Assembly: GCA_964016885.1 (NCBI GenBank)
Contig: OZ024745.1
Span: forward strand, 101,494,001-101,558,000
Length of the DNA stretch: 64,000 nucleotides
Direction: 5' to 3'
Source of the DNA: Eledone cirrhosa
Taxonomy: Eukaryota
A program made the position numbers and the translations under genes. A model generated the notes under the pieces. The model saw nothing but the letters and a program-made list of their open reading frames with translations. It did no database searches and had not been told where the DNA came from. This document shows, piece after piece, positions 4,587 to 60,839 of this stretch; the stretch's first letter is position 1, and every line of letters starts with the position of its first letter.

Positions 4587-5443
4587 AGTATATCTTATAT
4601 ACAATAAACAAAACTTCTCTAGATAGTATAATTAACCAGTATATCTTATATACAATAGTTACAAAACTTCACTAGATAGTATAGCTAACCACCATTTCTT
4701 ATATACAATAGTTACAAAACTTCACTAGATAGTATAGCTAACCAGTATATCTTATATACAATAGTTACAAAACTTCACTAGATAGTATAGCTAACCACCA
4801 TTTCTTATATACAATAGTTACAAAACTTCACTAGATAGTATAGCTAACCACCATTTCTTATATACAATAGTTACAAAACTTCACTAGATAGTATAGCTAA
4901 CCACCATTTCTTATATACAATAGTTACAAAACTTCACTAGATAGTATAGCTAACCACCATTTCTTATATACAATAGTTACAAAACTTCACTAGATAGTAT
5001 AGCTAACCACCATTTCTTATATACAATAGTTACAAAACTTCACTAGATAGTATAGCTAACCACCATTTCTTATATACAATAGTTACAAAACTTCACTAGA
5101 TAGTATAGCTAACCACCATTTCTTATATACAATAGTTACAAAACTTCACTAGATAGTATAGCTAACCACCATTTCTTATATACAATAGTTACAAAACTTC
5201 ACTAGATAGTATAGCTAACCACCATTTCTTATATACAATAGTTACAAAACTTCACTAGATAGTATAGCTAACCAGTATTTCTTATATACAATAGTTACAA
5301 AACTTCACTAGCTAGTATAATTAACCACCATTTCTTATATACAATAGTTACAAAACTTCACTAGATAGTATAGCTAACCACCATTTCTCATATACAATAG
5401 TTACAAAACTTCACTAGATAGTATAGCTAACCACCATTTCTTA
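4587..5443. repeat. 53-bp minisatellite, about 16 copies
   Basis: Unit CTTATATACAATAGTTACAAAACTTCACTAGATAGTATAGCTAACCACCATTT. Confidence 0.97.
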
Positions 5444-8214: not shown

Positions 8215-8982
8215 TAAAAGGATCCTCGACTCAGTGAGACATATTACTGTAGTTTGACATATTGAGGTGTGGATTCTTAAAATGTCTTTGACTGAGTGAG
8301 ACATAATACTATAGTTTGAGGTGTGGATTCTTAAAATGTCTTTGACTGAGTGAGACATAATACTATAGTTTGAGGTGTGGATTCTTAAAATGTCTTTGAC
8401 TGAGTGAGACATAATACTATAGTTTGAGGTGTGGATTCTTAAAATGTCTTTGACTGAGTGAGACATAATACTATAGTTTGAGGTGTGGATTCTTAAAATG
8501 TCTTTGACTGAGTGAGACATAATACTATAGTTTGAGGTGTGGATTCTTAAAATGTCTTTGACTGAGTGAGACATAATACTATAGTTTGAGGTGTGGATTC
8601 TTAAAATGTCTTTGACTGAGTGAGACATAATACTATAGTTTGAGGTGTGGATTCTTAAAATGTCTTTGACTGAGTGAGACATAATACTATAGTTTGAGGT
8701 GTGGATTCTTAAAATGTCTTTGACTGAGTGAGACATAATACTATAGTTTGAGGTGTGGATTCTTAAAATGTCTTTGACTGAGTGAGACATAATACTATAG
8801 TTTGAGGTGTGGATTCTTAAAATGTCTTTGACTGAGTGAGACATAATACTGTAGTTTAAGGTGAGTATTCTTAAAACGTCTTTGACTCAGTGAAACATAA
8901 CACTGTAATTTGAGGTGAGGATTCTTAAAATGTCTGAATCGGAGAGACATAATACTATAGTTTGAGGTTTGGATTCTTAAAA
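8215..8982. repeat. 54-bp minisatellite, about 14 copies
   Basis: Unit TTTGAGGTGTGGATTCTTAAAATGTCTTTGACTGAGTGAGACATAATACTATAG, with an identical core and diverged edges. Confidence 0.97.
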
Positions 8983-9582
8983 AGTTATCAAAGAATTTAG
9001 TTTATGACGAGATTGGAATTTCAGTATTTTCACTTTTTAAAAAATCTTTATTGCTATAAATTACTTTTTTCATGGTAATTAAATAAAATGTGACATTTTT
9101 CCAAGCTAAAAGTGTGGCTTATTTCCATTCACCACTTTTTACATGTTTTCTCTCTAGCACACCTGATTACTTTTATAGCCAGTTTTTCCCAGTTCACCTA
9201 TGCATGCGTAGGTGTATGCATGCATGTGTTCATGTGTGTATAGAAACAATTTTTCTGTTTTAGGTGATTTTAATAATTGGCAAATTTTAACATCTGCATA
9301 TCATAAGACCAATTATTTTTTACAGCTGACTAAGACTACCCTTGTTACCTCTAATCACTCAACTGTGTAACAAAAGTGGAACCTATTTGCCAGCCAAGTA
9401 GCCTAAGAGCAGCAGTTATGCCCCACATCCAAGAGCATAGCAAAAAAAACGTTACAGTAAGGTTTAAAATAATGGCTTTCAACTACTAATGATGTGAGTA
9501 GTCCAATATCTAAACTTCACAGCTGTTAAAAGATGATTCTACTAAAAGAAAACAATAGATGAAAGAAAAAAATATAACTGAC

Positions 9583-10616
9583 CTGTAGACATGGTATCTT
9601 CAGGAGATAATAATGGTTTAATATCATCTTCCCAAAGTAATTTGAGAGATGAAAGTGTATTTTGTTCTTCCACCTTTTCTTTTTCCATTATTTCTTTGTA
9701 CTCTGACCAATTTTTAGCATCCTTTTTCGGTTCGACAGTTGACTTTTTGAAAGAATATTTCAAAGGTTTATTCCTGAATGAAATGTTTTGGGTAGAACGA
9801 AAATATTTATGCTGACACATCACAGTGTCCCGGTATTCTTGGACATTAAAAGTATACTCTGTTGATTGTAAAGGTTCTCCTAAAAGTGTTGTTATTATAT
9901 CTTCATTTGGCAGTGACAGATACATAAATGTCTGGCCAGCTATGTTAGGTATGTTATATTTACTAAAATCCCATTTAGGTCCAGTATTTACACCTGTAGA
10001 ATGAAAATAATTTATGTCGTCAATATATCCCTGATACAAATTCCTCCGTAGTTGATGTTCCTCAACAGGTGACTCTTTCAAATTCTGTGAAGGGATCAAA
10101 TCCGTGCATTCTTTTCTGTTGACCAGATTGCTTTTATTTTCTATTGTTAATGACTCAATGTTCTCAACAACATCTCCATTTTCACAATTTTCATTTACCT
10201 TGCTTTGTTCATTATCCTTCATGTTGATATCCTTATTTTCTGAACTATTTCTCAGACAAACTAAATTCTTTTGCTGTATAATCTTCTCAGAACATAATCC
10301 AGTCTCAGAATCCTTAAGTGAGCTTTCTTCAAAACAAGATGTATTTTCTTTAGCACTGACATTCAAGTTAGGCAGTACAACATTTAGTGACTTATCCTCT
10401 TTCACTGTAAACTTTACATCTGCATCATGTTCTTTAGATTTATCAAGTGAATCAATACACCGCATTTTCTTAGCATGATTTGATTTCAAAATTGTTTCAT
10501 GCTCTTGCAAGTCCTCTTCCTCCGAACTTGAAATATATTGTTTATTATAATATTTGCGCTTATTTTTAACATATTGGTTAATATTCAAACACCTTTCATA
10601 TGGTGTAAAATCTGAA
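9583..10616 (-). CDS. TSEN54: TSEN54 exon 6, large 1034-nt exon
   Basis: tttccAG acceptor, G|GTCAGT donor, stop-free (ORF 9542-10588). Conserved islands TPYER.LN, WDFS...PN, NWSEYKE and LW...IKPLLSP are separated by low-complexity sequence. Confidence 0.9.
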
Positions 10617-12290
10617 CTGGAAATAAGTAAGAAGACACAATATTAGTAAATACTATAGATTAAAATTTAGGTATATTACTTTCACTTCTTTATAACAAAA
10701 ATAGATCTAGTAAAGACTACGTTAGTGCTGAGGGAGGAAAAGCACATGTGTGACCTAACATAATACTAAATGACCATAAACAGTGATTATCACTGAAGAA
10801 GCCAAAAGAGCGCAAAGTGGATAAACTAATTTCTCCATAGATATTTCTCTGTCAAAACATTGATAAAATAGTACTGCTAACCGTAAAAAAAATCATTATC
10901 ATCATTATCATTGTTTAACGTCCATTTTCCACACTAACATGGGGGTTAGACGGGTTGTCCCATTTGAGGCAAGTTGGGTCAGGTGACCGTGTCTTGCCCA
11001 TACAGAACTGTTTCTGGCTAGGTTTCTACGGCTGGATGCCCTTCCTAACACCAACCATATTTAAAGTGTGTGCTGTGTGCTTTTTATCATGACTCCTACA
11101 TGACCACTTTACAGTGTAGGCTGGGTGCTTTCTGTTGTGACACCTACACAACCATTTTGCAGCGTGAGCTGGATATATTTTGTTTACAGTGTAAGGGTGG
11201 TGTGGACAGTAGTGGATGGGTGGTGGTATAGTTGTTAAGAGGTGCCTACTAGATGTGTTTGAGTCAATGCGCATGGGAAGTCGTTTCTTCTGTATTACTG
11301 AAAAATACACACAATTATTTCCATAATAAGTTAGGTAGCTTCTTTTGGCTAATGTTGGACAGTAGCAGTAAAATAGCAAATAAAGTTCACAAAACAGTAA
11401 ATGAGTATATTGAATATAAGGGCAGGAACCTTCATCATAGATTGAGGTGTTTTGTGAGGAGAAAATCATTTTTATTCACAGAAGAGCTCTGTTTGGAATA
11501 TTAGGATTCTCTTATTACAGTATACAAACTTATTATAATTTGGAAACATTATAAAGGAAAGAATCTATCTTGTCTGGTATAGTAGAGAGAGGGTAGATGT
11601 AGAAAGAAGGAGCCTGACATTGTGTTAAAAGAAATAAATGATTATAAACAGAAAAAAAGGACATCCAGTAAAAGATATAAACAGTAAGTTAGATGCAAAA
11701 CAAATCCAGTAAGGGACAGCAGAACAAGAAGAGAAAAATAAATTATACATAATACAATAGACATCAACAAAATTACTGGTTCCAATCAGATAGAACAAAG
11801 AAAAGGAATAGAAAGAAATATATAAACAACAATAACAAAAAAAAACTGACAGCAGTAGAGGGTGGGGACGTTACTAAAAAGATTTATGATGATAACAACT
11901 GTTAAATGTGAAGAGATAAACTGGTAAGGGAGTGCAGTAAATTAACTATATCCTCAATTCTTTTTTTACAAATGTCAGAAAAGCCAGCATTGTTCTTGTA
12001 GAAGGCCAAGCTGTAACTTGAGCAAGAAATAGTATTGGGCATTCTTGTTAGCAACATTCTAGAATGTAATGGCATGATATGTGGCCAGCTAGGAATTAGA
12101 AAAATAAACTTGATTCTTCTAATATTACAGGGAGTCACTAGAACAATCTCTCAATACCTGTTATGATTATTTTCATTGCATTCATTCTTCTTTCCATTTC
12201 TTTCTTTGCTTCTACATTGATAGGATTTGGTTGGATCAGTTAGCAAGGATCAATATTTAGGTGTAATCTAAAAATTGTAGTTATACCTAC

Positions 12291-44910: not shown

Positions 44911-45783
44911 TATGAGGCAGCATGTGCCTGGTGTTTTACGCACTGGAGAACATTGTCCAAGCATATATCATTGTGGTAGCAATGGTGGTGGTCTGTGTAT
45001 TCTTCTTAGTTATCTTTGTATCATTGAAGATGAGAGACTATTAGCCCTGTATTAAAACCTTTTATTGACTTTTCTCTTGTTCTGGGCTTATTTAGCCGAA
45101 TAGTGTTGGTGAATTTATTCAGTATTATCCATCCTTTACCTAACTATTAGTCTACAATATTTTTGAATCATTGTTGTCCTTTCATACACTCTATAATTAT
45201 TTCTACCACTAAATATATGTCTATACTTGCCAAATTTATTTTCTTGTAGTACTTACTTTACCACCCAAAGAGTGTATGTTCGTACATCATCTATTTATAA
45301 TATAATCATTAAATAAAAATAAGAAAGATGAATTAATGAATGCTTATAATTTAAGGCTTTTCATCGCTTTGGCAACAGAGCCGGATGCCGCTGCCAGCAA
45401 AAGATGACTTAACAGGAATCAACTGACCGTTTCCTTTTCATATCCGAAACCATTGGGACATCCAGTGTTCTTGTTCCCCAGACTGTTTAACTTCAGCAAA
45501 TTGCAACAAGGGTATCATGCCTGAGGAAGGAGTTCTACAAGGGAGAGTGGCTGATGCATCAGATAATGCTGGCAATGCCTTTGCTATTTTGTCCACAGGC
45601 TGCCGCTAAGATATTGCCACCTAGCCATGAGTGTAGAATTTTCTCTTTCCCTATTTCTCCCTTTTTCTTTCTATTTTATTATTTTATTTTTTTTTTGCTT
45701 TTCACCATTATGATATATTACTCTTTTACCTGTTCCAGCCATCCGGCTGAGACCCTGCTGGGGCACCACCCTTGAAAGGAATT

Positions 45784-45896
45784 GTTTATAGCACTTAGGT
45801 TTCCCAAGCGGTCACCCATCTAAGTACTAACTGGGCTCGACTTAACTTCAGTGATCAGATGAGAGCCGGTGTTTTCAGTGTGATATGGCCGTAAAC
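45784..45896 (-). pseudogene. 5S rRNA pseudogene
   Basis: Minus strand reads GTTTACGGCCATATCACACTGAAAACACCGG...GAAGTTAAG...GTTAGTACTTAGATGGGTGACCGCTTGGGAAACC...GCTATAAAC. About 113 nt, with an approximately 5-nt deletion after box A, CpG-decay substitutions and no oligo-T terminator. Confidence 0.9.
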
Positions 45897-49830: not shown

Positions 49831-50930
49831 GTCACTACACTCTCTTTTCCCCCTTCTCCCACGTAGCCTTCATCACTACACACTCTTTTTCCCCCCTCTC
49901 CCACAACCGTTGCCTTCATCACTACACACTCTCTGTTTCCCCCTCTCCCACATCTGTTGCCTTCATCCATCACTACACACTCACTTTTTCCCCTCTCCCA
50001 CATCTGTTCCCTTCATCACTACACACTCTCTGTTTCCCCCTCTCCCACATCTGTTGCCTTCATCACTACACACTTTATCCTCCTCTCCCACAACTGTTGC
50101 CTTCATCACTACACACTCTCTGCTACCCCCTCTCCCACAACCGTTGCCTTCATCACTACACACTCTCTTTTTCCCCCTCTTCCACAACTGTTGCCTTCAT
50201 CACTACACATTCTCTTTTTCCCCCCTCTCCCACAACCATTCCCTTCATCATACTCTCTTTTTCCCCCTCTCCCACATCTGTTGCCTTCATCACTACACAC
50301 TTTTTCCTCCTCTCCCACAACTGTTGCCTTCATCACTACACACTCTCTGTTACCCTCTCCCACAACCGTTGCCTTCATCACTACACACTCTGTTACCCCC
50401 TCTCCCACAACTGTTGCCTTCATCACTACACACTCTCTGTTACCCCCTCTCCCACAACTGTTGCCTTCATCACTACACACTCTCTGTTTCCCCTCTCCCA
50501 CAACCGTTGCCTTCATCACTACACACTCTGTTACCCCCTCTCCCACAACTGTTGCCTTCATCACTACACACTCTGTTTCCCCTTCTTCCACAACCGTTGC
50601 CTTCATCACTACACACTCTCTGTTACCCCCTCTCCCACAACTGTTGCCTTCATCACTACACACTCTCTGTTACCCCCTCTTCCACAACTGTTGCCTTCAT
50701 CACTACACCCTCTCTGTTACCCCCTCTTCCACAACTGTTGCCTTCATCACTACACACTCTGTTACCCCCTCTTCCACAACTGTTGCCTTCATCACTACAC
50801 ACTCTCTGTTTCCCCTTCTCCCACAACCGTTGCCTTCACCACTACACACTCTCTGTTTCCCCCTCTCCCACAACCGTTGCCTTCATCACTACACACTCTC
50901 TTTTCTCCCTCTCCCACAACCGTTGCCTTC
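49831..50930. repeat. 45-47-bp pyrimidine-rich minisatellite, about 24 copies
   Basis: Unit CCACAACTGTTGCCTTCATCACTACACACTCTCTGTTACCCCCTCTC. Confidence 0.96.
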
Positions 50931-51618
50931 AATATCCTCTCTGATTGTGGTATTCATCCTTCTATTAAAGTCAGAAGCCATGCTTTCCAGCATAGTTACA
51001 TCCCTTTACAGTCTGAGTTCAAATCCCGCTGAGGTTAACTTTGCATTTCATCCTTACGGGGTAGATAAAATAAAGTACCAGTAATGCACTGGGTAATTGC
51101 TGGCCTTGTGCCAAAAGTAGAAACAATTATTCATTTTATTACTCTTGTTATTATCTCCAATACATAATAGCGGAGGGGATGGGGTGGGGCGATTATTTGA
51201 GACCCAAAAGTAATAGAATTTTAGAGATAAAAATTTAAGAGAAAGAGGAATAGAGAAAGACACTCACATTAAGAGAGAGTGAGTGAGTGAGAGAGAGAGA
51301 GAGATGTCGTTAAAAATTAGAAGGAAGTGACTTATTAAAAATTAGAACCAGTATTAGTGCTGCTCAGAAAACAATCAAATTTCCTTTGTATTAAGTTTTA
51401 TATATTTCCAGCAAATGTAATATACTAACACATGTTAATACTATATTGGTTTCCAATTTCCTAATAATGTATATTTAGAAGGATTCCAGTGGCCAGTTAT
51501 TATAGGAGACTTTCCCTTTTCTTTCACAAAAACATTTATGGATTTTTCCCATTCTTTTGCATGTGTGTGAATCATTATTAATTTTAATGGCCTGGTCTCA
51601 CTTGTGTGTGTGTGTATG

Positions 51619-51659
<41 letters not shown>

Positions 51660-52047
51660 CATCATCATCATTTTATTTTACGTGCGCTTTTCCCTGCTTG
51701 CAAGGGTGGGACGGGAACTGATTCTGGCTTGATTTCTACAGCTGGATGCCCTTCCTAACACCAACCTCATTTACAGTGAGTGGTGGGTGCTTTTTTTCCA
51801 TGGCGCCTACACGTCCACTTTACAGTGTGGGCTGGGTGCTTTTTTGTCGTGGCACCTCCTCGACCACTCTACAGTGGAATGACATGGACCCCAGTCCCTA
51901 TCATCTCATTTCTACAGCTGAGTAAACTGGAGCAATGTGAAATAAAGTGTCTTGCTCAAGGAAACAACACATCACCCGGTCTGAGAATTGAACTCACAAC
52001 CTTTCGATTGCAAGGCCAATGCTCTAACCACTAAGCCATGTGCATCC
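51660..52047 (-). mobile_element. Same SINE family, with an internal duplication of about 40 bp
   Basis: Collinear with 39171-39513, flanked by (TA)n. Confidence 0.88.
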
Positions 52048-52142
52048 TTTATATATATATATATAACGAAGGAAATGTGGTAAGGAACCAGGTGGACCAT
52101 AACGCACCAAAGTATTCAATACTTAGGGTAGTAGAGTGGGTA

Positions 52143-52259
52143 ATAGGAACGAGTAGGACCCCGACGGCTGAGCTCAAGCCGTTGCGACGGCTAATTCTGG
52201 TCCAGAATTAGCCGTCAAAACGGCTTGAGCTCAGCCGTTGGGGTCCTACTCGTTCCTAT
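52143..52259. repeat. 117-bp near-perfect palindrome
   Basis: 58-bp arms around T52201 with 3 mismatches. Confidence 0.95.
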
Positions 52260-53248
52260 ATATATATATATATATATAAATAAACGCATGTGTGTATGTA
52301 GCTATATGTACTTTATATAATTGTAAAGCAACAGATACACGCACACACATAGAAATGAGAAAACTCATCGCTGGAACAGCTGTAGGACAGAAACCAGCTG
52401 CCAGGGTCAACAGAGAGACAATCCACAATTTAGCTATTCTAGCAATGAATTTTCTCATTTTTTTATGTATTCAAATACACACTCACTTCATCTCGATTAG
52501 AGACAACATTGTTTTAGTTATATATATATATATATTGATTCTTGAATCATATATTTAATGGGGTGGTGAGGAGATTGGTAGTTATTATGTTGTAGTAGTA
52601 TTAATGATGAGTGAAGTTGGTGAGTTGAATGAGTGAGTGTTTGGTTGAGTCCATGTGATAAGTGAGCAAAGTGTCTCAAAGAATCAAGAGAATCGTTGCT
52701 GTGATGTTTTGCCATAGTTGATGAAACCAGTGGTTGTAATTGCTTGTTGAGGTGATGTGATGTTAGTGTGGGGAAAATAATTTTCCCAATCACATTTATA
52801 TGAAGAAAACCACAATATCTGCTAAATAAATATTTTTTATTTGTTGACATAAATTCCACTGAAATCATGTGATAAAATAGAAAGCAAAAAGAAAGTATTT
52901 TGAATGAATGCAATGAGTGTTGTGCTTAGTGTGTAAGGCAGTGGATGTTAGCATTTTTGTGAATTGTATTGGAAATGAATACAGATATTCTGAATGAAAT
53001 TTGGTAGATCTGGTTGATCTGTTGTAGTCTGTATTGAGACCACATTTGATTTTACCTTATATAATGTTTTCCTGAAAATATGACACTAGACCACACAAAT
53101 ATTGGTAAGCACCTATTGTCCTCAGACATTGGACATTTTTACCTATTGTTGATTTCACTGAACTTATAGGTAGGTCAGCATGCTGATGGTGTCATTATTT
53201 TCAAAAATCAATAGAAAAACTTTCCTCTGGTGCCAGATTTCACTTATA

Positions 53249-53514
53249 TCATCATCATCATCATCATCATCATCAACGTTTAACGTCCGTGTTCCACGCT
53301 TGCATGGGTTTGGACGGGGGTTTTCCCACTTGAGGCAAGAGTGATTATCTTGCTCGCATAGGACTATCTGGCGGGTTTTCTACAGCTGGATGCCCTTCCT
53401 AACACCAACCACATTTACAGTGTGGGGCTGGGAGGTTTTTACCGTGTTGCCTACACAGCCACATTACAGCGTGAACTGTGTGTTTTTTTGTCGTGACACC
53501 TACACGACCTCATT
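53249..53514 (-). mobile_element. RTE family B 3' UTR fragment
   Basis: Near-identical reverse complement of 53997-54260. Confidence 0.9.
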
Positions 53515-53534
53515 TATATATATATATATATATA

Positions 53535-54272
53535 TGTGTAATAGTAATATACGTGAACGGCAATGTGTAATAGTAATATACGTGAACGGCAAAGCATTAA
53601 CGAACTAAGGGAGAAATTAGAAATAAGAGGGATCAGATGTTGTTTACTCGAGAGAAGGCTGCGTTGGTATGGTCACGTGATGCGCATGAAAGACGACAGC
53701 TGTATAAAAAAGTGCAGGGCAATAAAAATAGACGGTAGCCACGGAGTAGGCAGACCCAGAAAAACCTGGGACGACTTGATAAATTCCGACCTCACACACT
53801 TACACCTCTCCAAGACAATGTCACTGGACCGAGACCTTTGGCGGTACTCAGTAATAGAGAAGACCCGCCTTACCTAAATACAAAGTAAAACCTACTACAG
53901 TCAGTAGGCACCTCTAACAAAATACACCCCTGTCCCCATCCACACTGCCCCTTTCAATGTAAAGTTATGTTGGTGCCACAACATCCAGGCTGAAACAAAT
54001 GAGGTCGTGTAGGTGTCACGACAAAAAAACACACAGTCCACGCTGTAATATGGCCGTGTAGGTAACACGGTAAAAACCTCCCAGCCCCACACTGTAAATG
54101 TGGTTGGTGTTAGGAAGGGCATCCAGCTGTAGAAAACCCGCCAGACAGTCCTATGCGAGCAAGACAATCACTCTTGCCTCAAGTGGGAAAACTCCCGTCC
54201 AAACCCATGCAAGCGTGGAATATGGACGTTAAACGATGATGATGATGATGATGATGATGAGGATGATGATGA
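53535..54272 (+). mobile_element. RTE family B 3' fragment
   Basis: ORF 53563-53877 (RLRWYGHV, GRPRKTW) plus 3' UTR and (GAT)n. A 29-bp duplication sits at the 5' junction. Confidence 0.9.
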
Positions 54273-57184: not shown

Positions 57185-59190
57185 TGACCTCATAGTCGTA
57201 GTATAATAAGTAAGGCAATCAAAGATATGAAGACAGGCAAGGCAGCTGGGCCTTTGGAGATAGTTGCTGAGATGTTGAAGGCATCTGGTATGGTGGGACA
57301 CACTATGGTCACCCGTATAGTTAACCAAGTAATACAGAATGGAGTCATACTGAAAGACTGGCGTAGCAGCATCATCATTAACTGCTACAAGGGTAAAGGA
57401 GATGCACTAGATAGGGGAAACTATAGAGGCATTAAGTTAGTTGACCAGGTCACGAAGGTCACAGAAAGAGTTATAACGCAACTAATCAGGGAGCGAATTG
57501 ATCTAGGTGAAATGCAGTTTGGGTTTGTGTCAGGTAAAAGTACCACAGACACTCTTTTCCTTGTACGACAACTACAAGAGAAGTACCTAGCTAAAAGTAA
57601 ACCCCTCTACTTTGCTTTTGTAGACCTGGAGAAAGCTTTTGACAGAGTCCTCCGCTCCATTATCTGGTGGGCTCTCAGAAAACTAGGTGTAGATGAATGG
57701 CTTGTGAGAGCTATACAAGCTATGTATAATGAAACGGTCAGTAAAGTTAGAATTAACAATGAATATTATGAAGAATTTAGTGTAAAAGTTGGTGTTCATC
57801 AAGCCCTCTTATTTATTATTGACCTTCTGGCTATAACAGAGGAGTTCAAGACCGGCTGCCCATGGGAACTCCTATACGCAGATGATCTAACGCTCATAGC
57901 TGAATCAATGGCTGATCTAGAGAAGAAATTCCAAACATGGAAGCATGGCCTAGAATCAAAAGGCCTTAAAGTTAACTTGTCTAAGACTAAAGTTCTAGTT
58001 TGTAGAAAGGACAATAGGGCACAGGTGCCCTCAGGGAAATGGCCATGCTCAGTGTGTAGGAAAGGAGTAGGCAGAAATTCCATTTTATGTCCCAAATGCA
58101 AAGTATAGGTACATAAAAGATGTAGTGGGATCACAGGTAAACTATCTAAGAACGTAGACTTTATATGTGGCCGATGCTCAGGTGCAATAAGTAGCAAGTG
58201 TCCAAAGGATACTAGCTCCTTCTATTGCCCAGATGGTTCTATAGAAATAGTAGACACTTTCCGTTACCTGGGTGACAAAATCAGCAGTGGTGGAGGGTGT
58301 TCTGAAAGTACAGTAGCCAGTCAGAACGGGATGGAAAAAGTTCAGAGAGCTTATACCGCTGTTGGCCACAAAAGGTTTCTCTCTAAAAATGAAAAACAGA
58401 TTGTATGATGCCTGTATACGAACAGCAATGCTACATGGCAGTGAGACATGGGCATTACGTGCAGAGGACCTGCGTAGACTGGAAAGGAACGAAGCATGCA
58501 TGCTCTGTTGGATGTGAAATAGTAATATACGTGAATGGCAAAGCATAAATGAACTAAGTGAGAAATTAGTAATAAGAGGGATCAGATGCTGTTTACTTGA
58601 GAGAAGACTACGTTGGTATGGTCACGTGATGCGCATGAAAGACGACAGCTGCATAAAAAAGTGTAGGGCGATCAAAATTGATCGTAGTTACGGAGTAGGT
58701 AGACCCAGAAAAACCTTGGATGATCTGATAAATTCCAACCTCACACACTTACATCTCTCTAAGACAATGTCATTCTACCGAGATCTTTGGCGCTATGCAG
58801 TAATATAGAAGACCTGCCTTGCCTATGTACAAAGCGAAACCAACTACAGTCAGTAGGCACCTCTTCACCAAATATACACTCCAAATCACTACCCCTACCC
58901 TATCCTCCCACTCACACCAACAGCACGAGAAAATGAGATCGTGTAGGTGTCACGACAAAAAACACACAGACCACGCTGTAATGTGGCCGTGTAGGTAACA
59001 CGGTAAAAATCTCCCAGTTCTACAATGTAAATGTGGTTGGTGTTAGGAAGGGCATCCAGCCGTAGAAAACCTGCCAGATAGTCCTATATGAGCGAGACAC
59101 GGTCACCCGACCAGCCTTGCCTCAAGCGGGACAACTCCCGTCTAACCCATGCTAGTGTGGAAAATGGACGTTAAACGAAGATGATGATGA
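57185..59190 (+). mobile_element. 5'-truncated RTE LINE, family B (RT through 3' UTR)
   Basis: ORF 57227-58108 (NYRGIKL, QFGF, DLEKAFD, YADD) and downstream disrupted frames. The 3' UTR ends GGACGTTAAACGAAGATGATG. Confidence 0.95.
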
Positions 59191-60139
59191 GGATTTTAAA
59201 ATTTAGTGTGTCATAGAACCATAAGCAGTTTCAGCTGGTTCTGTATCAAAAGGGTTAAGACATGTGAATGAAGATTTGACAGTTATTTCTTGCATGTCAA
59301 GTGACCTCTTTGACTTGTATTTCGCCAAGGTGCAGTCTAATCTGGGTTGCATACTACAAAGCCATTTAGATAAGATATATACTAACTACCAAACTATCTA
59401 GGGTTATATTTGACATAAATTGGGATATAAATGTTGATTCAAAGTCTAAGAAACTAAAAAGAAGTGGTTAGTTATTAATTCTGACTCGTATGTGAAGTTC
59501 ATCATCATTTCATTCCACTTTCCATGCTGGCAAGGGGTAGACGGGTTCTTACAGTTGTTCCAGATTGAAGTTGCTGTCCTCCTTGATAGGGACCATCACT
59601 TGTACATTTTAATTTTGGCATAATATTTTGGCCTGCATGCCCTTCCAATGATCTACAACTCTACAGAATGTACTAGGGGCATTTTATCATGGCATCAGCA
59701 TTAAAAAAATGACCTCTCCACCTTTCATTATCTTTGTTCATTTTCCAACCACTTTACAGAGTGTACTAGGTGCATATTATGGTACCAACATGTTCAATAA
59801 TTACTGTATATACTTGAATATATTCAAGTATACAGGGTAGGTAAAATTCCTGTTCAGAAATGATAAATGTCTAAAAATCAAAATATAAAATTTCTTCCGC
59901 TTTTAAAAAAAAAATCCAGTTAATCAATTGACAGTTCTTTTAATTATTGCAGTTAGAAATACACATCATTAACTTCTCAAAAGCCAGAGTAAATCTTAAT
60001 TACCTTATGATGCCTTCTGAAAATGCAAGAATATCGCGCTTTGCAGCAATCAATGAAGCCGACAGAGGAGTACTTTCAAAGAAAGATATGATCACATGAA
60101 ACAGTTCAACAAAGCGAACAACACAGTTGCCCTTTAACA

Positions 60140-60839
60140 GCAAATGTTTCTCCTATAGTGTGGAACTTCCCGGTCTTTGCGACCAGTAATGCAATATTGT
60201 ACGATGCAATCTTAACGTCATTTTCCTGTACAGTTGCTTCCCTAAACACCGTGTTCAGTGTTTTCCGCTTTTCGAAAGAGGCCTTAAGTTGCCAAAAATA
60301 TGACAACGGTTTGTCTTTTTTGTCAGAATGCTTGGAATCAAAATGATATTTCAAGCGTGAAGGTTTCATGGCTTCATTGCTCAAAGTTTGCTGGCATAGA
60401 AGACACATGGGTAATTGGCAGTTCTGAGGAGAAGCAATAAATCCATATGATAAATAATCAATGTTGTACTGGCGACAAGTTTTCTTTACCGGAGGCATCA
60501 GAGAAGTTAAAATTCGAAAAAAGAATTCATAGAGGCGGAATCGTCGAAGGCAGAAATTCACGATGTGCGACAACAGCAGTGTTAACACGTTTTGCCGTTG
60601 GTCTTGCGCCATCACCTGTTTTAGCTTACTCGGATGTATGCATGCAGATGTGTGCGCGTCTAATGCAAGCTGTCCATGTGAGCTGTTCGGCAGCTGTAAA
60701 CTGCTAGACATGAATCAATAACATACTTAAATACTGAAAATCTTTTGTTGCCCACCAAAATTTTAGATCGCCCACCATTTCCTAAAAATTTGTTCATTGC
60801 CCACCCAATAGTTGAAATCACGCAGGTTGAGAAACCCTG
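60140..60839 (-). mobile_element. hAT (Charlie/Buster) transposon left end with transposase N-terminus
   Basis: Terminus CAGGGTTTCTCAACC at 60839. ORF from ATG 60498 reads RQYN.DYL.YGF, PMCLLC..LSNEAMKPSRLKYH...KH (BED finger), ASY.IA..AK.GK.HTIGE, then is truncated. Confidence 0.88.

What the first reader, a model, noticed from the sequence alone, without database searches (positions are those of the whole stretch)
52066..52259. 117-bp palindrome that appears to be a folded-back hammerhead ribozyme
Seen: a CpG-rich island between (TA)n tracts ends in 58-bp inverted arms with a 1-nt loop and 3 mismatches. The consensus of the two arms reads ...AATTAGCCGTC-GAAA-CGGCT-tgagctc-AGCCG-TC-GGGG. That is the 3' half of a hammerhead: GAAA box, a 6-bp helix III, a GUC cleavage triplet and a helix I strand. 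The symmetry centre is a long hairpin positioned exactly as helix II. Where CCCC-CUGAnGA should be, there is instead the inverted copy. Two of the three mismatches are CpG transitions. Known: Penelope-like elements carry hammerheads in their pLTRs and often leave inverted pLTR pieces. Inference: reverse transcription snapped back at the ribozyme's own helix II, converting a ribozyme into a genomic palindrome that could act as a dsRNA or cruciform source.
Basis: partly seen in the sequence, partly recalled or inferred. Interest (0 to 1): 0.8.

Follow-up and report, generated by a model that had tools for sequence, protein, structure and literature searches.

The report
Retroelement stub joined at transcript cap
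This 194-base piece is one of tens of thousands of stubs of a Penelope-like retrotransposon, and its palindrome was likely made by copying the capped start of the element's RNA twice and joining the two copies head to head, not by a ribozyme folding back on itself.

Summary
The palindrome is real (58-nt arms, 3 mismatches) and is the 3' half of a hammerhead. It is a minimal insertion of a (TA)n-targeting Penelope-like element with Hydra-clade motifs: at least 25,144 tail-bearing ends and a full pLTR-ORF-pLTR parent. The parent core is UUGAnAA (U3-A8), not CUGAnGA (0 of 100 listed); helix II covaries. Snap-back is not supported. In 162 sampled copies, 98 main arms start in one 12-nt window, and the tail-less partner is the longer arm in 29 of 105. 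3,045 arms carry a G before A(-56) that 0 of 80 long copies have, sometimes on both arms: the known mark of a copied mRNA cap. Best reading: the promoter starts RNA inside helix II's loop; two internal priming sites give two cDNAs that run off the cap and are joined. A smaller pile-up at the predicted cleavage site may record ribozyme cutting in vivo. No RNA data were available. New variant of a known kind.

The parts
52050..52065 (.). (TA)n target, left side; its last bases (TAT on the minus strand) are shared with the element's second priming site
   Evidence: parent context; TA repeat follows the tail in 159 of 162 sampled copies
52066..52142 (-). 77-bp 'tail' (element positions +5 to +81; 0 = first C of the CCTAT after helix I), present on one arm only
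   Evidence: tail defined in PMC8557442 and PMC11167929
52143..52200 (-). Main (tail-bearing) arm, element positions -53 to +4: 3' strand of helix II, GAAA box mutated to GCAA (52185-52182), helix III, intact GUC triplet (52165-52163), helix I 3' strand (52162-52158)
   Evidence: alignment to long copy L243; structure
52201..52259 (+). Inverted tail-less partner arm, element positions -54 to +4: GAAA box mutated to AAAA (52217-52220), helix III (52220-52238), triplet mutated to GUU (52237-52239), helix I 3' strand (52240-52244); ends in TAT shared with the target
52200..52202 (.). Head-to-head junction, 2-3 nt short of the inferred capped start A(-56) on each arm; this copy has lost the initiator-like motif and shows no extra G
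   Evidence: (363 copies of this centre)
52260..52279 (.). (TA)n target, right side

Best explanation
The piece is a minimal insertion of a (TA)n-targeting Penelope-like retrotransposon, and its palindrome was likely made by two separate reverse-transcription events that each ran off the capped 5' end of the element's RNA and were then joined head to head. Shown: the parent element, its hammerhead with a U3-A8 core, two fixed 3' ends 80 nt apart that both end in TAT, a 5'-end pile-up at -49 to -60, and a non-parental G before A(-56). Inferred: an internal Pol II promoter in the pLTR starts capped RNA at A(-56), in a T(T/C)AGT motif in the loop region of helix II, so the mRNA begins with only the 3' half of the ribozyme and carries a whole ribozyme only at its 3' pLTR. 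The enzyme would nick both strands of a (TA)n repeat and prime each on a UAU site (+4 and +84). Priming in the 5' pLTR gives 61- and 141-nt run-off cDNAs. End trimming, A-tailing and microhomology joining then give a roughly 120-bp palindrome plus tail. Priming in the 3' pLTR gives the rarer long copies. The stub is predicted to be catalytically dead as a single RNA (no UUGAnAA half).
For: Parent: L121, cores 3,564 bp apart around an RT-EN frame with RWR, DKT, YRDD, CxCX5C, CxxC, CxH. 162 distinct tail-bearing copies from contig C1: main-arm starts 98 at -49..-60, 8 at -61..-99, 16 beyond, 40 nearer; stop rate 0.095/nt in the window against 0.006 and 0.005 on either side. 105 have a short inverted partner, all called tail-less. 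The partner is longer by over 3 nt in 29, shorter in 29, within 3 nt in 47. Base before A(-56): G in 3,045 of 6,571 non-T arms genome-wide; G 48, C 44, A 8 in the first 100 (hand count); G in 0 of 80 called long arms (86 examined). Of 48 G-arms read, 30 have a G the partner cannot explain, three of them directly on (TA)n (L342, L354, L366). Both arms carry the G in L350/351, L355, L363 and in 8 pairs among 100 rows (hand count). Control one base further in: G only 16 of 100 (hand count). An extra G marks capped full-length L1 insertions (PMC11702581, passages). A TSS in the pLTR is known for Penelope and Chlamys. Two internal RT starts that define the tail, with both strands extended, were shown in vitro for PAc (PMC11167929). 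Subfamily tags of the two arms agree within 1 nt in 72 of 76 called (21 not called), against 13.5% identity by chance.
Against: No RNA evidence either way. This copy lacks the extra G, so it is explained by its family, not by its own junction. 18 of 48 G-arms could take the G from the partner. Many arms appear to reach -57 to -60; I read these as A-tailing or microhomology (next bases T or A; A-runs after the cap-type C in L363) but did not prove it, and weaker upstream starts are possible. Two copies have a tail on the inverted side (L101, L151), missed's end pattern. The sample is the first copies on one contig, chosen by an exact tail pattern. The initiator consensus is recalled; the passage read did not give it. 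No clear DPE at +28 to +32 by eye. In PAc priming was reported as non-homologous, whereas here both sites share TAT with the target.
Confidence: 0.8

Rival explanations
1. One reading: one cDNA stalls at helix II, snaps back and copies itself, giving the inverted arm.
For: The pile-up does lie in the helix II region. Arms share subfamily tags. Snap-back after full-length cDNA is documented for R2 proteins (PMC11371274, passages) and may account for a minority of copies.
Against: A self-copied arm cannot be longer than its template, yet the tail-less arm is longer in 29 of 105. It could not carry its own cap-type base, yet both arms do in several copies. It has no reason to stop at +4, which long solo ends also use. 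Stops fall beyond the paired 3' strand, not at its base (-39 to -48: few), and RNA starting at -56 has no helix II.
Confidence: 0.07
2. Two cDNAs, but the RNA 5' end at -56 is made by processing (nuclease cut or splicing at the (T/C)AG acceptor-like site), with the G added by RT terminal transferase or left from a 5' exon.
For: The motif also reads as a polypyrimidine-(T/C)AG splice acceptor. Penelope has an intron ending at its hammerhead (PMC4209133).
Against: No shared sequence lies 5' of the G in 48 junctions, so there is no common upstream exon. G excess is specific to -56. Long copies keep the unspliced sequence.
Confidence: 0.09
3. The 194-bp unit is a non-autonomous element (MITE-like or a master-copy SINE) that spreads as a ready-made palindrome.
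For: The 40 best hits are all near full-length, 96-100% identical; 363 copies share this exact centre. Some re-amplification of a master stub cannot be excluded.
Against: Those hits were ranked by likeness to the query. Unbiased copies have many different junctions; 363 is 1.4% of 25,144. The inverted repeats are not terminal on the tail side, and the sequence is the pLTR of an RT-encoding element. Both centre bases occur relative to the tail, as recurrent formation predicts.
Confidence: 0.04

Closest known systems
Hydra clade of C-terminal EN+ Penelope-like elements (Craig et al. 2021, PMC8557442; section 11 and passages read)
   Same: RWR for RWK, DKT, CxCX5C linker, CxxC and CxH around the EN end, no two cysteines between the GIY- and YIG-like motifs, (TA)n targeting, inverted 5'-truncated copies, tail.
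   Different: Described there as generally under 3 kb with canonical hammerheads. Here the period is 3.56 kb, the tail 77 bp rather than 30-40, the core U3-A8 or C3-A8, helix III 5-6 bp, and most copies are stubs.
PAc, Poseidon element of Anolis (Frangieh et al. 2024, PMC11167929; parts 1-2 of 4 read)
   Same: Two internal RT start sites bounding the tail, AT-rich target, both strands extended; ribozyme cleavage not needed for insertion.
   Different: PAc starts lie inside the ORF and are non-homologous to the target. Here they lie 5' of the ORF (ATG at +175) and share TAT with it. The parts read do not describe run-off at a cap or how inverted ends form.
U3-A8 hammerheads of Schistosoma Cercyon PLEs (PMC4209133, parts 1-2 of 4) and natural U3-A8 cores (PMC3088659, passages)
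   Same: Type I topology, U3-A8 covariation (reported active in vitro in other ribozymes), palindromic sequence in loop 3.
   Different: Those PLE motifs are minimal, lacking helix III. This one has a 5-6 bp helix III, a single G10.1-C11.1 pair before a 2x1 internal loop, a long helix II and a 33-37 nt loop holding the inferred start site.
Penelope internal promoter (Schostak et al. 2008, PMC2377424; passages)
   Same: TATA-less promoter and start site inside the pLTR.
   Different: In Penelope the start is upstream of an intron that ends at helix I, so the 5' UTR holds the whole ribozyme. Here the inferred start splits the ribozyme.
L1 twin priming and cap-derived extra G (PMC11702581; passages)
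   Same: Second cDNA primed from the other target end gives an inversion; extra G at full-length 5' junctions.
   Different: In L1 the two cDNAs cover adjacent parts of the RNA. Here both cover the same 5' 60 nt, so the product is a palindrome.
Non-LTR retrozymes (bioRxiv 10.64898/2026.07.22.740005; part 1 of 5)
   Same: Short non-coding PLE-derived repeats linked to type I hammerheads.
   Different: Retrozymes are head-to-tail tandems with whole ribozymes. These stubs are head-to-head and hold half of one.

Membership tests
Penelope-like element (insertion) | Parent with one RT + C-terminal GIY-YIG-type ORF between pLTRs | tested here: met
   L121; its frame is broken in this copy. Pfam gave no hit on the two pieces; 1 of 3 homologues scanned had a weak GIY-YIG hit, E 0.04; 247 longer homologues found.
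Penelope-like element (insertion) | Inverted 5'-truncated copy and tail at one end | tested here: met
   105 of 162 with a short inverted partner; kb-scale inverted pairs too.
Hydra clade | RWK, DKT, CxCX5C, CxxC and CxH motifs; no CCHH cysteines | tested here: met
   against section 11 of PMC8557442; RWR in place of RWK.
Hydra clade | (TA)n targeting | tested here: met
   159 of 162.
Hydra clade | Placement in the clade on an RT tree | not tested
   No named reference PLE proteins were at hand; membership rests on motifs.
Hydra clade | Canonical hammerhead core | tested here: not met
   0 of 100 listed cores are C3-G8. The paper gives this as a common trait, not a diagnostic one; hence 'variant'.
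Type I hammerhead (parent) | Core boxes and three helices | tested here: met
   19 copies: 90.4% of cells paired; 3 helix II pairs change on both sides; N7 varies, A9 and GAAA do not. Helices I and III show no double changes. MFE gave the three-helix fold in 2 of 4. Rfam gave no hammerhead hit on the window or the parent pLTR.
Type I hammerhead (parent) | Self-cleavage after GUC | not testable with these tools
   Indirect only: excess of arms starting at -14 to -16.
Type I hammerhead (window copy) | Complete core | tested here: not met
   5' half absent; both GAAA boxes mutated.
MITE / DNA transposon | Terminal inverted repeats and fixed unit | tested here: not met
   Repeat is sub-terminal on the tail side; junctions vary.
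Non-LTR retrozyme | Head-to-tail tandem units each with a whole hammerhead | tested here: not met
   the one 257-bp tandem seen (L038-L040) lacks the core's 5' half.

The most novel reading that the evidence does not exclude
This family is a genome-wide record of the Penelope-like insertion reaction: its promoter fires inside its own hammerhead, so the mRNA is born with half a ribozyme; inverted ends arise from two cDNAs made on one transcript; and a second pile-up of ends at the GUC site is evidence that a PLE hammerhead cuts in the germ line. The by-product is on the order of 15,000 or more near-perfect 60-bp hairpins scattered through the genome.
Probability: 0.45. Interest if true: 0.72.

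Novelty: new variant of a known kind. Interest (0 to 1): 0.55.

Why it matters
How PLEs make their inverted ends, and whether their hammerheads cut in vivo, are named as open in PMC8557442 and PMC11167929. Here thousands of young junctions can be counted: double-G junctions speak for two independent cDNAs, the extra G maps a start site to the base without RNA data, and starts at -15 may record cleavage. The same reading can be applied to any PLE-rich genome. It also shows that CUGAnGA searches miss this family. If transcribed inside host genes, the hairpins would be substrates for editing or silencing; that is untested. The single copy in the window is an ordinary, decayed stub.

Tried and rejected
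Rfam: no hammerhead hit on the window (only a generic miRNA-hairpin match far below threshold) or on the parent pLTR. A canonical CUGAUGA hammerhead upstream of one copy (L041) first looked like the parent's; rejected because it belongs to another family that also occurs alone (L005). Pfam blank on the parent ORF; PDB sequence search gave only weak T-cell-receptor matches, taken as noise. Earlier findings: nothing by sequence or words. Ungapped arm mapping was replaced by a gapped one. Splice-acceptor and MITE readings were rejected as above. A DPE was looked for by eye and not found. Literature: eight searches were answered; none listed a paper on cap-marked palindromic PLE stubs, but the library lacks most subscription papers and Repbase, and the supplements of PMC8557442 (Hydra family list and hammerheads) were not read, so the family or its core may already be catalogued.

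Full report
Observation. The palindrome is at the stated place: arms 52143-52200 and 52202-52259, 58 nt, 95% complementary, between (TA)n tracts, folding far below shuffles (z -17.4). The mismatches are at 52163/52239, 52184/52218 and 52185/52217. Neither arm of this copy has an intact GAAA, but the family does: of 29 other copies, 23 read GAAA and 26 keep the GTC triplet on the right arm. Positions below count from the first C of the CCTAT that follows helix I (0); the GAAA box starts at -38 and the predicted cleavage base C17 is -16.

It is a repeat. The 194-bp unit gave 3,637 candidates in the 3.0-Gb genome, and the 40 scored were near full-length at 96-100%. An exact 26-mer at the arm-tail junction occurs 25,144 times, the window's subfamily tag 9,281 times, and this exact centre 363 times. 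All are lower bounds. The centre varies among copies chosen without regard to it.

The parent. Copies that extend further 5' lead to a full element: in L121 two hammerhead cores lie 3,564 bp apart around an RT-endonuclease frame, broken in this copy. It has RWR, DKT, YRDD, a CxCX5C linker, a GIY-YIG-like IY...YIG without two inner cysteines, CxxC and CxH. These are the traits given for the (TA)n-targeting Hydra clade (PMC8557442, section 11). No tree was built, Pfam was blank on this ORF, and only 1 of 3 homologues scanned had a weak GIY-YIG hit. The host looks like a cephalopod to me; that is recalled and untested.

The ribozyme. Of the first 100 of 5,824 core matches, 75 are U3-A8, 23 C3-A8, 2 U3-G8 and none C3-G8 (hand count); position 7 takes all four bases. 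U3-A8 is known from Schistosoma PLEs (PMC4209133) and is reported active in other hammerheads (PMC3088659, passage). In 19 copies across subfamilies and a sister family, 90.4% of cells pair and three helix II pairs change on both sides; helices I and III show no double changes, so they are supported by conservation only (related sequences inflate such scores). Energy folding gave the three-helix form in 2 of 4 copies; the other two prefer a hairpin that hides GAAA. Rfam did not detect it. In the window's own subfamily about 7 of 11 long copies have C3-A8, predicted to be impaired, which fits the report that cleavage is not needed for insertion (PMC11167929).

Where copies begin. I mapped both arms in 90 consecutive tail-bearing copies and 100 consecutive copies of the window's subfamily on contig C1, 162 distinct. 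Main arms start at 0 to -39 in 32, -40 to -48 in 8, -49 to -60 in 98, -61 to -99 in 8 and beyond in 16: a stop rate of 0.095 per base in the window against about 0.006 on either side. 105 have a short inverted partner, 78 of which start in the same window. All 105 were called tail-less; one search showed two copies with a tail on the inverted side that the later pattern missed. Long copies also end at either +4 or the tail. Both ends finish in TAT, shared with the target.

Why not snap-back. A strand copied from the tail-bearing cDNA cannot be longer than it, yet the partner is longer by more than 3 nt in 29 of 105, shorter in 29. A tail-less cDNA cannot template the tail. Two cDNAs are needed, which matches the two internal start sites and two-strand extension shown for PAc. 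The arms share their subfamily tag within one base in 72 of 76 called, so they come from one RNA or one source.

Why at -56. The window sits on a conserved T(T/C)AGT island in an otherwise variable loop, which resembles a Pol II initiator (recalled; one search did not give the consensus). Long copies have T or C before the A (G in 0 of 80 called). Among arms with a non-T base there, 3,045 of 6,571 have G; the first 100 split G 48, C 44, A 8 (hand count; C includes a templated subfamily and partner ends). Of 48 G-arms read, 30 cannot take the G from the partner and 18 can; three sit directly on (TA)n; three junctions carry it on both arms, as do 8 pairs in 100 rows. One base further in, G precedes only 16 of 100. 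An extra G is the known mark of a copied cap in L1 (PMC11702581, passage), and PLE start sites lie in the pLTR. Apparent starts at -57 to -60 are followed mostly by T or A and are best read as A-tailing or microhomology; that step is inferred. The window's copy starts at -53 and -54 and has no G of its own.

Possible cleavage. Of 55 stops between -11 and -48, 12 fall at -14 to -16 (binomial p 0.001). Among 55 distinct places where the arm lies next to TA repeats (first 100 of 155 rows), 21 start exactly at G(-15), against at most 7 in any other class (hand count). Caveats: about 9 of these have a T that could be a decayed C(-16), the pattern favours shorter arms, and RT stalling at the base of helix III would give nearly the same ends. 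I put cleavage in vivo at about 55%.

Comparison and verdict. It works like PAc in priming and like L1 in cap copying; it is a member of the PLEs and, by motifs, of the Hydra clade. Known already: pLTR hammerheads, U3-A8, inverted ends, tails, pLTR promoters. Not found in eight searches: a start site inside the ribozyme, and cap-marked double run-off as the main product; supplements and Repbase were not seen. No RNA holder was listed, so expression, hairpin RNA and cruciform roles are untested. Papers seen: PMC8557442 (section 11, passages), PMC4209133 and PMC11167929 (parts 1-2 of 4), the retrozyme preprint (part 1 of 5), PMC2377424, PMC3088659, PMC11371274, PMC11702581 and PMC8384218 (passages). 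New variant of a known kind; interest 0.55.

Noticed in passing
L219, L231, L255, L291, L300, L305 (long copies); one search list: A successful lineage has a C3-A8 core (23 of 100 listed cores), a mismatch at a pair normally required; 20 of the 23 read CUGAGAA, which could also be a core lacking N7 with an extra base before helix II. Unexplained.
   Followed up: partly
L041, L043, L005, L030, L003, L027, L029: Other families in this genome carry canonical CUGAUGA minimal hammerheads, several ending in (TA)n; L003 and L027 hold tandem units of 310 and 467 bp.
   Followed up: no
L370-L399: Sister family with the same core, helix I and tail, a different helix II, and the same T(T/C)AGT island in register.
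   Followed up: partly
L037-L040 (G000:C1:27009483-27010054): Three head-to-tail 257-bp units running from about -60 through the tail into the 5' end of the body, with an inverted partner in front.
   Followed up: no
L285, L299, L335, L345, L362: Junctions with short duplications of the arm's own end, suggesting re-priming before joining.
   Followed up: no
window 45783-45896 (-): 5S rRNA match, 77 bits, with a 5-nt gap; a pseudogene or 5S-derived repeat.
   Followed up: no
window 51981-52038, 39447-39504, 14919-14976: Weak tRNA-like matches, probably heads of a SINE; one lies directly beside the finding.
   Followed up: no
window 53248-53515 and 53997-54264: 268-bp inverted pair, 96% complementary, 481 nt apart; a related copy at 51723-51865.
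   Followed up: no
window 9542-10642 (-): 366-codon open frame ending in a splice-donor-like context, possibly a host exon; whether the finding lies in an intron was not determined.
   Followed up: no
window 25345-26217, 32959-33900, 57188-58108, 60106-60714: Fragments of a LINE-type reverse transcriptase (three) and of a DNA-transposon-like protein; family labels recalled, not tested.
   Followed up: no
window 4593-5443, 8262-8982, 17184-20584, 29487-31727, 49837-50931: Minisatellite arrays of 53, 54, 18, 54 and 47 bp.
   Followed up: no
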